A DNA stretch of 64,000 bases from a virus (lineage: Duplodnaviria > Caudoviricetes). This document shows, one piece after another, positions 24,465-26,648 of this stretch (position 1 is its first letter; each line of letters opens with the position of its first letter). The stretch lies in IMG/VR virus record IMGVR_UViG_3300042558_004043; one strand, written 5' to 3'. Made by a program: the position numbers and the translations under genes. The notes beneath the pieces were generated by a model. It did no database searches, was not told where the DNA came from, and saw only the letters and a list, made by a program, of their open reading frames with translations.

Positions 24465-26648
24465 ATGGAATTCCTAATCAAACAGAACGCTACTCTCCCA
24501 CTATTAAAGTTACAAGTAGTTAAAGACGGCAGAAGTGACTACAATAGTTTTATGAAACTTATCGAAGTTTCATCGATTTTTTTCTCGATGACCGACTTAG
24601 ATACAGGAATTCCAAAAATTATGTCTCGTCCTGCCGGATTTGTTGAAAAGACATTCGATGACCCCAACGCTGAAACCGAATATTACCTTTATTATCAATT
24701 TACATCAACTGATACAAATTTAATCGGTCGTTTTGAGGGTCAATTTATGTTAAGAAACTCCGAAGGAGTTTTAATTTTACCTATAAGAGAAAAATTATTT
24801 ATTAATATACAAGAATCATTTATTGCTAATGACTTGGAATACCAAAGTTGTTATGTTTCAGAATTTCCATGTTGTATTGAATCCCCGATAGAACCTGTTT
24901 GTCCCCCTTGTACTATCCCTCCCACACCAACAGTAACTCAGACAATAACCCCGAGTGTCACACCAAATTATTGTAAGACTTTTAATTCACAAGAATCGGA
25001 CATTCTAATAATTGACGACAATACGGCGTCATACTATCCAATAACGTTCCTTGTTGATGGGATTTCTAATCCCATTGATAGTGTAACATTAACACTTAAT
25101 TCATATTTTCATACTTATGTTGGGGATGTTGGAATGTTACTAGTGGCACCTGATGGTAGATATTCGGTGATAACGGGTCGAAAAGGTTCAATTGGTGTTG
25201 TTGATGGAACCATATCACTAACTACATTATCGAATGATGTTTGGGACGGATATTCAATTGGTTCTTATATAAATGACCCAAATGCATATGATAATATCTT
25301 GTTTAGCCCCCCAAGTCCGTATCAATTAAGCGCCGGTCAGTCATCCCAAGACTTAACTGTTTTTCTAACGGATAATGCGGGATTGTATGCTAATGGTTTT
25401 TGGAATTTATACATACAAGATTTTGCATCTGAGGACAGTGGTTCATTGCAATCGGCCACTTTAACAATATGTGATTCAGGACTACAAAGAACTCCAACCG
25501 CAACCCCAACACCTACGATGACGCCAACACTAACTTCAGGATTTTTAATAAAAGGTAGTTTGTTTGGATTAATACAACCAGGTTCAGTGTATGTAAGATA
25601 CTATTTTGTATTAGAAAATTCTTTTTATTCTGATATAACATTAACATTTACCCATGTAATAGGTACAACTAATGGAAACATAACTATTAATTCTGGACTT
25701 GAGTTAGACAAAGGTAAAACATCTTCATTTAATGATATAACAATAGATGTAAATTTTGACACATTAACTGAAGTTTCATACTTTACAAACGTATTAATTA
25801 ATCCAATAGAGTTTAATAGTAAATTTTTAATTGATGAACAAATTAATTTTATTTACCCAACACCTACACCAACTCCAACATCACCGCCACCCCCTGTTTG
25901 TTCTAATAATTTAATGTCGGAATCTGGTGATATCATTATAAGTGAAAATAGTTTTGGTATAACTACCGAACAAACTTGTATTTTTATAAGTTTATCGGCA
26001 TATTATTACGAAATAGTTGGAGGAGTTGCGTTTTCATATACATTGAACTCAAATGTTACAATGAGTGAAGACTTAACCGTTGATTTCTTTAATTATTTGG
26101 GAACTGTAGAAGACGAGACAACATTAATTATAGAAGAAGAATTAACTTTATCGGCTGGTACATCAAGTACTCAAATTAATTTTACAAATAATACTTTCCC
26201 ATATAATATATTTGATGGAGGTGCTAATTTCCAAATTAACGGAGGATACCCGTACAACACGTACGTTACTGAAGATTATGTTTATGTTATTACAACATCT
26301 TACGAATTTATACCACCAATATCAGGAAATACTCCAATTTCACCAACACAAATACCGGTACAACCTACTTTAACACCTACACAAACTCAAACATCTACAC
26401 AAACTCAAACACCTACAAGAACTCAAACACCTACACAAACTCAAACACCTACACAAACTCAAACACCTACTCAAACTCAAACACCTACTCAAACCCCTTC
26501 AATAACTCCTTCAGAGACTGTTACCCCCACATTAACACCAACCAACACCCCAACCCCTAGCTCAACTCCACCAACACCCCCTTTAACCTTAATTTACACA
26601 TTAACTGACGTAGCTAATGAAAATTTAAAAGGAGTTATTGTAATTTAA
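24465..26648 (+). CDS. Mucin-like virion protein: BppU-like N-terminus, proprotein-convertase P-like domain, Thr/Pro tracts
   Basis: IKQNATLPLLKLQV; HTYVGDVGMLLVAPDG...NGFWNLYIQDFASEDSGSL; four TPT tracts. Confidence 0.65.
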   Translation: MEFLIKQNATLPLLKLQVVKDGRSDYNSFMKLIEVSSIFFSMTDLDTGIPKIMSRPAGFVEKTFDDPNAETEYYLYYQFTSTDTNLIGRFEGQFMLRNSEGVLILPIREKLFINIQESFIANDLEYQSCYVSEFPCCIESPIEPVCPPCTIPPTPTVTQTITPSVTPNYCKTFNSQESDILIIDDNTASYYPITFLVDGISNPIDSVTLTLNSYFHTYVGDVGMLLVAPDGRYSVITGRKGSIGVVDGTISLTTLSNDVWDGYSIGSYINDPNAYDNILFSPPSPYQLSAGQSSQDLTVFLTDNAGLYANGFWNLYIQDFASEDSGSLQSATLTICDSGLQRTPTATPTPTMTPTLTSGFLIKGSLFGLIQPGSVYVRYYFVLENSFYSDITLTFTHVIGTTNGNITINSGLELDKGKTSSFNDITIDVNFDTLTEVSYFTNVLINPIEFNSKFLIDEQINFIYPTPTPTPTSPPPPVCSNNLMSESGDIIISENSFGITTEQTCIFISLSAYYYEIVGGVAFSYTLNSNVTMSEDLTVDFFNYLGTVEDETTLIIEEELTLSAGTSSTQINFTNNTFPYNIFDGGANFQINGGYPYNTYVTEDYVYVITTSYEFIPPISGNTPISPTQIPVQPTLTPTQTQTSTQTQTPTRTQTPTQTQTPTQTQTPTQTQTPTQTPSITPSETVTPTLTPTNTPTPSSTPPTPPLTLIYTLTDVANENLKGVIVI
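26373..26495 (+). repeat. 18-nt coding tandem repeat (ACACCTACACAAACTCAA = TPTQTQ), about 6.8 copies
   Basis: Read directly; units start at 26373, 26391, 26409, 26427, 26445, 26463, 26481 with few substitutions. Confidence 0.95.

What the first reader, a model, noticed from the sequence alone, without database searches (positions are those of the whole stretch)
24465..26648. Mucin-like virion protein directly downstream of the GT cluster, with an expandable 18-nt repeat
Seen: four Thr/Pro tracts, the last encoded by about 6.8 near-identical 18-nt units (26373-26495), separating a BppU-like N-terminus, a P-domain-like module (about 25000-25476) and other beta domains. High nucleotide identity between units suggests recent expansion by slippage. 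Inference: heavily O-glycosylated stalk whose length, and so glycan load, can vary; prime acceptor for the adjacent GT60.
Basis: partly seen in the sequence, partly recalled or inferred. Interest (0 to 1): 0.68.

Follow-up and report, generated by a model that had tools for sequence, protein, structure and literature searches.

The report
Phage beads-on-string protein, Thr/Pro linkers
A giant lake phage encodes a baseplate-type protein of four beta domains joined by threonine/proline strings that its own sugar-adding enzyme probably coats; it is one of about fifteen such proteins, and in a sister strain its DNA repeat has changed sequence but hardly its length.

Summary
The 727-aa ORF has a BppU-like N-domain (Z 8.7), a P-domain (PF01483), an Ig-like domain, a further beta domain, four Thr/Pro tracts and an in-frame 18-nt array (6.8 copies) that slippage has homogenised.

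Two inferences fail or weaken. Variable length: a sister strain has different units but 44 vs 42 aa and the same 34 Thr, and four fetched assemblies are base-identical. Prime acceptor: in a complete relative the ortholog carries 35 of 1,351 tract threonines, and short orthologs beside intact GT60 have no tract.

The glycosylation idea gains support at system level. TPTPTPT tracts occur in 17/20 GT60-positive vs 0/26 GT60-negative large phage records, across several lineages (not kinship-corrected). Of 50,697 GenBank phage records only four match this GT60; one is XacN1, whose virions contain Schiff-positive glycoproteins (PMC5852040).

The scan has noted this GT60-Thr/Pro pairing on many other genomes.

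The parts
24442..24448 (+). TATTTAT motif 23 nt before the start; probable promoter element, so the gene likely has its own transcription start
   Evidence: Present upstream of 14 of 14 orthologs checked. Found before 15 of 41 window genes vs 1.7 expected (max 7 in 2,000 shuffles), including sheath, tube, tape measure and GT60, but also PolB and a HAD-like gene
24465..26648 (+). 727-aa modular protein, no signal peptide or transmembrane segment
   Evidence: maximum 19-residue Kyte-Doolittle value 1.45
24465..24875 (+). BppU-N-like anchor domain (aa 1-137), conserved clade gene, 69-92% identical in relatives
   Evidence: VIA-align top hits: TP901-1 BppU 4v96 (Z 8.7, rmsd 3.4, 102 aligned), 3uh8 (Z 8.1), 80alpha and NF5 baseplates; atlas TM 0.82 to a BppU_N cluster; model pLDDT only 69
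24894..24956 (+). Thr/Pro tract 1 (aa 144-164), after a Cys-rich linker
24966..25484 (+). P-domain module (aa 168-340); no protease domain; found only in the closest orthologs and in one other protein (L346)
   Evidence: PF01483 E 7.6e-07
25482..25541 (+). Thr/Pro tract 2 (aa 340-359)
25536..25856 (+). Ig-like beta-sandwich (aa 358-464), the common second module of this gene family
   Evidence: AF2 pLDDT 94.5; generic Ig-like matches, best Z 7.9; homologs in more than 40 family members
25845..25904 (+). Thr/Pro tract 3 (aa 461-480)
25980..26324 (+). Second beta-rich domain (about aa 506-620), lineage-restricted; fold not established
   Evidence: (TM <= 0.49)
26319..26600 (+). Thr/Pro tract 4 with its Pro-rich lead-in (aa 619-712; 36 Thr, 7 Ser, 20 Pro)
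26373..26498 (+). In-frame 18-nt array, seven units, homogenised by slippage
12920..14191 (+). GT60-like (PF11397) soluble glycosyltransferase, candidate initiating enzyme; likely start 12941
   Evidence: E 4e-66; the QIDSH motif is conserved in phage homologs
22079..24418 (+). TylF-HtrL-GT2 fusion; its HtrL-GT2 part is the conserved upstream neighbour and also lies 4 kb downstream of GT60 in XacN1

Best explanation
A late structural appendage protein of an uncultured freshwater jumbo myophage. The conserved BppU-like N-domain docks it on the virion, probably the baseplate (inferred from fold). Exchangeable beta modules (P-domain, Ig-like) are strung behind it on Thr/Pro linkers and may bind surfaces (inferred). 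In the host cytoplasm the phage's soluble GT60 adds the first sugar, probably alpha-GlcNAc, to Thr in these linkers, and the variable downstream GT6/10/11/25 and methyltransferase genes extend and cap it. This would stiffen the linkers and shield them from proteases (inferred from protist GT60 chemistry and co-occurrence). The protein is one minor acceptor among about 15. The 18-nt array is ordinary slippage turnover inside a linker, with length roughly held at strain level and drifting (69-106 aa) over longer times.
For: Shown: domain parse. Fixed position after the HtrL-GT2 gene, with GT60 upstream wherever enough flank was held. Conserved TATTTAT upstream, shared with sheath, tube and tape measure. 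Tracts sit between modules: 1/37 family members under 160 aa carry one vs 67/69 of 300 aa or more. TPTPTPT pattern in 4/4 cultured GT60 phages vs 0/7 GT60-negative jumbo relatives, and in 13/16 GT60-positive long metagenomic records vs 0/19 GT6-positive, GT60-negative ones. GT60 carriers span lineages with sheath identity 35-42% or no sheath match. XacN1 virions hold at least two Schiff-positive glycoproteins (PMC5852040). The T. cruzi enzyme adds alpha-GlcNAc to Thr in Thr/Pro peptides (PMC3769586).
Against: No glycan or virion proteomics exists for this phage. The XacN1 glycoproteins were not identified in the text I could read, and XacN1 also encodes a GT9. Three GT60-positive records lack the pattern, one rated complete. 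Several complete small phages have TP tracts without GT60. Co-occurrence counts are not kinship-corrected. The BppU match (Z 8.7) is only modestly above generic Ig folds. The upstream motif also precedes PolB.
Confidence: 0.6

Rival explanations
1. One reading: the array is a tunable contingency repeat that changes stalk length and glycan load within populations, and this protein is the main GT60 substrate.
For: The array is DNA-homogenised. The orthologous tract spans 69-106 aa across species-level relatives. A related gene differs by one 60-nt unit between strains (191 vs 211 aa). Two Logan contigs begin inside the array.
Against: The sister strain differs by only 6 nt in core length and has the same Thr count. 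The exact protein recurs on 11 contigs, and the four fetched have 0 mismatches, although an exact look-up cannot show variants. The ortholog holds 35 of 1,351 tract Thr in G001. Tract-less orthologs sit beside GT60. The Logan breaks fit a 33-nt exact repeat tangling the assembly graph.
Confidence: 0.1
2. The tracts are unmodified, rigid polyproline-like spacers. The GT cluster acts on host surface polysaccharide or on other virion sites, and GT60 merely travels with these phage lineages.
For: TP linkers occur in small phages without GT60. Cyanophage GT clusters are proposed to alter the host O-antigen (PMC7824862). No GT60-less complete member of this clade was found for a within-clade test.
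Against: Co-occurrence across several distant lineages, with 0/26 in the controls. Protein-acceptor chemistry of the GT60 family. Glycoproteins in XacN1 virions.
Confidence: 0.2
3. Glycosylation occurs on hydroxyproline, as for Dictyostelium Skp1 and its cytoplasmic Gnt1 (own knowledge), after a phage prolyl hydroxylase acts on the Pro residues.
For: The phage GT60 is soluble like Gnt1. G001 has an HxD...H...R oxygenase-like gene just before its cluster of giant TP proteins.
Against: That gene is found in only 2 of 12 GT60 genomes. PF13640 matched in only 1 of the 12 GT60-positive records searched. The XacN1 candidate lacks the HxD motif. The tracts are Thr-biased.
Confidence: 0.06
4. A host general O-glycosylation system (Bacteroidota type, periplasmic; own knowledge) modifies the tracts.
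For: Relatives carry DnaK, as do the moraphages predicted to infect Bacteroidota (PMC12619734).
Against: No signal peptide. The same tracts appear in Xanthomonas and Stenotrophomonas phages that share GT60 but not the host phylum.
Confidence: 0.04

Closest known systems
BppU (ORF48) of Lactococcus phage TP901-1 and related baseplate proteins (PDB 4v96, 3uh8, 6v8i, 9m8o; Pfam PF10651)
   Same: N-terminal beta-sandwich fold in the first position of a modular protein
   Different: No Pfam hit at sequence level; myophage rather than siphophage; modules joined by Thr/Pro linkers, not the BppU helical arm (own knowledge); cargo highly variable (94-2,105 aa)
T. cruzi mucins and TcOGNT-2 (PMC3769586); Dictyostelium Gnt1/Gnt2 (CAZy GT60, PF11397)
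   Same: Thr-rich, Pro-containing tracts plus an enzyme of the same Pfam family encoded in the same genome
   Different: Phage-encoded, soluble, no secretory pathway or GPI anchor; short inter-domain linkers; activity untested
Xanthomonas phage XacN1 (PMC5852040), Xoo-sp13, Stenotrophomonas phages CM1 and RAS14
   Same: GT60 45-48% identical; in XacN1 an HtrL-GT2 gene follows 4 kb downstream (39%); several TP-tract proteins; glycoproteins reported in XacN1 virions
   Different: Different PolB type and host phylum; fewer tracts; the BppU-like domain found no match in the GenBank phage set
Mycobacteriophage virion glycosylation (Freeman et al. 2023, as summarised in PMC12619734; the paper itself was not held)
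   Same: Phage glycosyltransferases coating virion proteins
   Different: There the glycans lie at the C-termini of capsid and tail-tube subunits; here the proposed sites are mucin-like linkers of accessory proteins, with a GT60 initiator
Moraphages (PMC12619734)
   Same: Large aquatic myophages with core glycosyltransferases; DnaK in relatives
   Different: Membership not tested phylogenetically; that paper does not mention Thr/Pro tracts or mucin

Membership tests
BppU-like baseplate proteins | BppU_N fold | tested here: met
   Top VIA-align hits are BppU and baseplate chains, Z 8.7 and 8.1; atlas TM 0.82; margin over generic Ig folds about 1 Z unit
BppU-like baseplate proteins | PF10651 sequence match | tested here: not met
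   No hit at E <= 0.1
BppU-like baseplate proteins | Located in the baseplate, binding Dit and carrying receptor-binding proteins | not testable with these tools
   Uncultured phage
Subtilisin-like proprotein convertases | P-domain | tested here: met
   PF01483 above cut-off
Subtilisin-like proprotein convertases | S8 catalytic domain | tested here: not met
   No S8 hit; the database names come from the P-domain only
Mucin-type glycoproteins | Thr/Ser/Pro-rich tandem tract | tested here: met
   43 Thr+Ser and 20 Pro in 94 aa
Mucin-type glycoproteins | Dense O-linked HexNAc glycans | not testable with these tools
   No glycoproteomics available
Mucin-type glycoproteins | Secretory signal or membrane anchor | tested here: not met
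   No hydrophobic segment; works like a mucin at most
GT60 polypeptide alpha-GlcNAc transferases (partner enzyme) | PF11397 match with conserved DxH motif | tested here: met
   224 bits vs cut-off 21; Asp and His of QIDSH invariant in nine phage homologs
GT60 polypeptide alpha-GlcNAc transferases (partner enzyme) | UDP-GlcNAc transfer to Thr or Hyp | not testable with these tools
   Needs an enzyme assay
Contingency (variable-number) tandem repeats | High unit identity, in frame | tested here: met
Contingency (variable-number) tandem repeats | Copy-number variation among close strains or reads | tested here: inconclusive
Moraphages | Placement in the clade by TerL/MCP/PolB trees | not tested
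   Only indirect traits: size, DnaK

The most novel reading that the evidence does not exclude
Several lineages of large phages build a mucin-like glycocalyx in the host cytoplasm. A protist-type GT60 primes hundreds to more than a thousand Thr sites on beads-on-string virion appendages, swappable downstream transferases diversify the glycan, and this BppU-anchored gene at the end of the GT cluster is the conserved dock on which glycosylated modules are exchanged.
Probability: 0.5. Interest if true: 0.75.

Novelty: new variant of a known kind. Interest (0 to 1): 0.48.

Why it matters
If the tracts are glycosylated by GT60, phages independently run a eukaryote-like mucin O-glycosylation pathway on their own particles, and a soluble polypeptide GlcNAc-transferase would be a useful glyco-engineering enzyme. 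A cultured phage (XacN1) has the GT60, the TP-tract proteins, Schiff-positive virion bands and a public proteomics set (PXD008065), so the idea can be tested now. The gene flagged here is a minor, typical member, and its repeat is not shown to be a tuning device.

Tried and rejected

An exact DNA flank search found nothing in viral or metagenome contigs. The cluster look-up did not hold the protein. PHROGs gave only a low-complexity hit. The N-domain had no match among GenBank phages, and the window PolB had none above 28% identity. A PDB sequence search was empty for GT60 and uninformative for the P-module. The sigma-70 scan was below chance.

Rejected: 'proprotein convertase' naming (no S8 domain); a general hydroxyproline route; Logan contig breaks as proof of polymorphism (a 33-nt exact repeat explains them). 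The fold of aa 506-620 was not resolved. Freeman 2023 and Heise 2009 were not held. Literature searches found no paper linking phage GT60 to Thr/Pro tracts; the library is incomplete.

Full report
Setting. The window is part of an AT-rich (33% GC) jumbo myophage with tail sheath (39757; PHROG 23), a putative tube, PolB and a ten-gene glycan cluster: GT60, GT25 x2, GT6, GT10, GT11, methyltransferases and a TylF-HtrL-GT2 fusion. No cultured relative exists (PolB at most 28% identical). Complete relatives are about 322 kb and carry DnaK, like the moraphages of PMC12619734; membership was not tested.

Observation. The ORF 24465-26648 encodes 727 aa with four Thr/Pro tracts. The last contains seven in-frame 6-aa units encoded by an 18-nt array (TRF 6.8 copies, 93%). 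Synonymous positions are homogenised far beyond codon bias (36/39 majority codons, 1 in 200,000 simulations), unlike the other tracts, so recent slippage or unequal exchange is real. GT60 is 10.3 kb upstream; the gene directly upstream is the HtrL-GT2 fusion.

Anatomy. Residues 1-137 model as a beta sandwich whose best matches among 48,161 chains are TP901-1 BppU and other baseplate proteins (Z 8.7, 8.1, 8.1; atlas). The model is middling (pLDDT 69) and the margin over Ig folds is small. Residues 168-340 hold a P-domain without any protease domain. Residues 358-464 fold confidently as an Ig-like sandwich with only generic matches. Residues 506-620 are a further beta-rich domain of unresolved fold. 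There is no signal or membrane segment. A TATTTAT motif lies upstream in 14/14 orthologs and before sheath, tube, tape measure and GT60, but also PolB. The gene therefore probably has its own promoter, and a late structural role is likely but inferred.

Family. The N-domain gene keeps its place between the HtrL gene and the PolB region across the 31 loci, sometimes with a small reverse-strand gene inserted, while its length runs from 143 to 2,105 aa and the GTs between GT60 and HtrL are swapped. In L272 it follows GT60 directly. Tracts appear where modules are added: 1/37 representatives under 160 aa, 21/44 at 160-299 aa, 67/69 at 300 aa or more (some short ones may be fragments). Orthologs of 139-250 aa near an intact GT60 have no tract (L006, L273). 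The tracts behave as inter-domain linkers and tails.

Is the repeat expandable? The exact protein is on 11 contigs read, and four fetched copies differ at 0 bases; this look-up cannot show variants. The informative case is sister strain L436. Its flanks are 91% and 97% identical and its core about 80%, it has amplified a different unit (TPTRTQ x3), and the core is 44 vs 42 aa with 34 Thr in both tracts. The array turns over in sequence while length and acceptor count are kept in this one comparison. Over longer distances the tract spans 69-106 aa and 21-44 Thr. Two Logan contigs start inside the array, as expected from a 33-nt exact repeat.

Is it the prime acceptor? In complete relative G001, 15 proteins carry tracts with 1,351 Thr; the ortholog has 35. 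Proteins of 1,100-2,300 aa carry 150-250 each. Earlier scan notes point to similar giants elsewhere in this genome (unchecked).

Are tracts tied to GT60? Among 50,697 GenBank phage records only XacN1, Xoo-sp13, CM1 and RAS14 match this GT60. All four have TPTPTPT tracts; seven GT60-negative jumbo relatives have none. In IMG/VR, 13/16 long GT60-positive records have them against 0/19 long records chosen for GT6 and lacking GT60. Pooled, 17/20 vs 0/26, Fisher p 7e-10; this overstates the case because kin are counted separately. The carriers do span distinct lineages (sheath identity 35-42%, and a 108-kb record without a sheath match whose tract lies under 1 kb from the GT60 match). Of 80 GT60 loci, 48 have a tract protein within 10 kb. 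The link is not absolute: three GT60 records lack the pattern, and small phages have TP linkers without GT60.

Experimental anchor. XacN1 virions contain at least two Schiff-positive glycoproteins, which the authors attribute to ORF328 (GT9) or ORF334 (the GT60 homolog) (PMC5852040). The bands are not tied to tract proteins in the text available. The T. cruzi enzyme adds alpha-GlcNAc to Thr of Thr/Pro peptides (PMC3769586). A hydroxyproline route is disfavoured because no prolyl-hydroxylase-like gene is shared.

Verdict. A real, well-parsed modular protein, probably a virion appendage whose linkers are glycosylated by the phage GT60 (about 0.6; every biochemical step is inferred). The gene-specific claims of tunable length and prime acceptor are not supported. 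Novelty: new variant of a known kind. Interest 0.48, carried by the system and its testability in XacN1 rather than by this repeat. The comparisons above were done before I consulted the scan's earlier notes, which report the same pairing on many genomes and are not independent evidence.

Noticed in passing
L036/L037:4383-5645: A strain 97% identical in this protein stops at residue 420 and continues into unrelated DNA, and its upstream GT set differs. Natural truncation or a chimeric assembly.
   Followed up: partly
L003/L005/L014 vs L004, N-domain gene: Strain-level difference of one 60-nt unit (191 vs 211 aa) in an acidic, non-Thr tail of the orthologous gene.
   Followed up: partly
L134:25312-26949 (XacN1 ORF330): HtrL-GT2 gene 39% identical to window 22079-24418, 4 kb downstream of GT60: GT60 plus HtrL-GT2 looks like the shared core of the pathway across distant phages.
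   Followed up: partly
L039:15441-16067 (G001 35441-36067): 209-aa gene with an HxD...H...R pattern of 2OG-Fe(II) oxygenases, no Pfam hit, directly before the giant Thr/Pro genes; present in 2 of 12 genomes.
   Followed up: yes
L001:9165-9749, L006:9379-9954, L023:2726-3307, L025:6113-6724: A 190-205 aa reverse-strand gene is often inserted between the HtrL gene and the N-domain gene, with paralogs elsewhere in G001; possibly a mobile endonuclease.
   Followed up: no
G060 (L345), G058 (L333): GT60-positive records, 100% and 88% complete, with no match to the Thr/Pro patterns; their acceptor is unexplained.
   Followed up: partly
L265:10307-12400 (G017): A 108-kb phage without a sheath match has a divergent GT60 (28%) next to a TP-tract gene on the opposite strand.
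   Followed up: partly
window:2428-3627: Second Thr/Pro protein (399 aa, three tracts), with orthologs upstream of GT60 in many relatives.
   Followed up: partly
window:10177-12872: Three tandem glycine-rich paralogs directly upstream of GT60.
   Followed up: no
window:30074-30757: Papain-family (PF00112) gene; a Peptidase_C1 domain is fused to the N-domain in some homologs (P0065, P0076, P0119).
   Followed up: no
window, upstream regions: TATTTAT occurs before 15 of 41 genes (1.7 expected); it matches the reverse complement of seven bases of the T4 late promoter consensus (own knowledge).
   Followed up: partly
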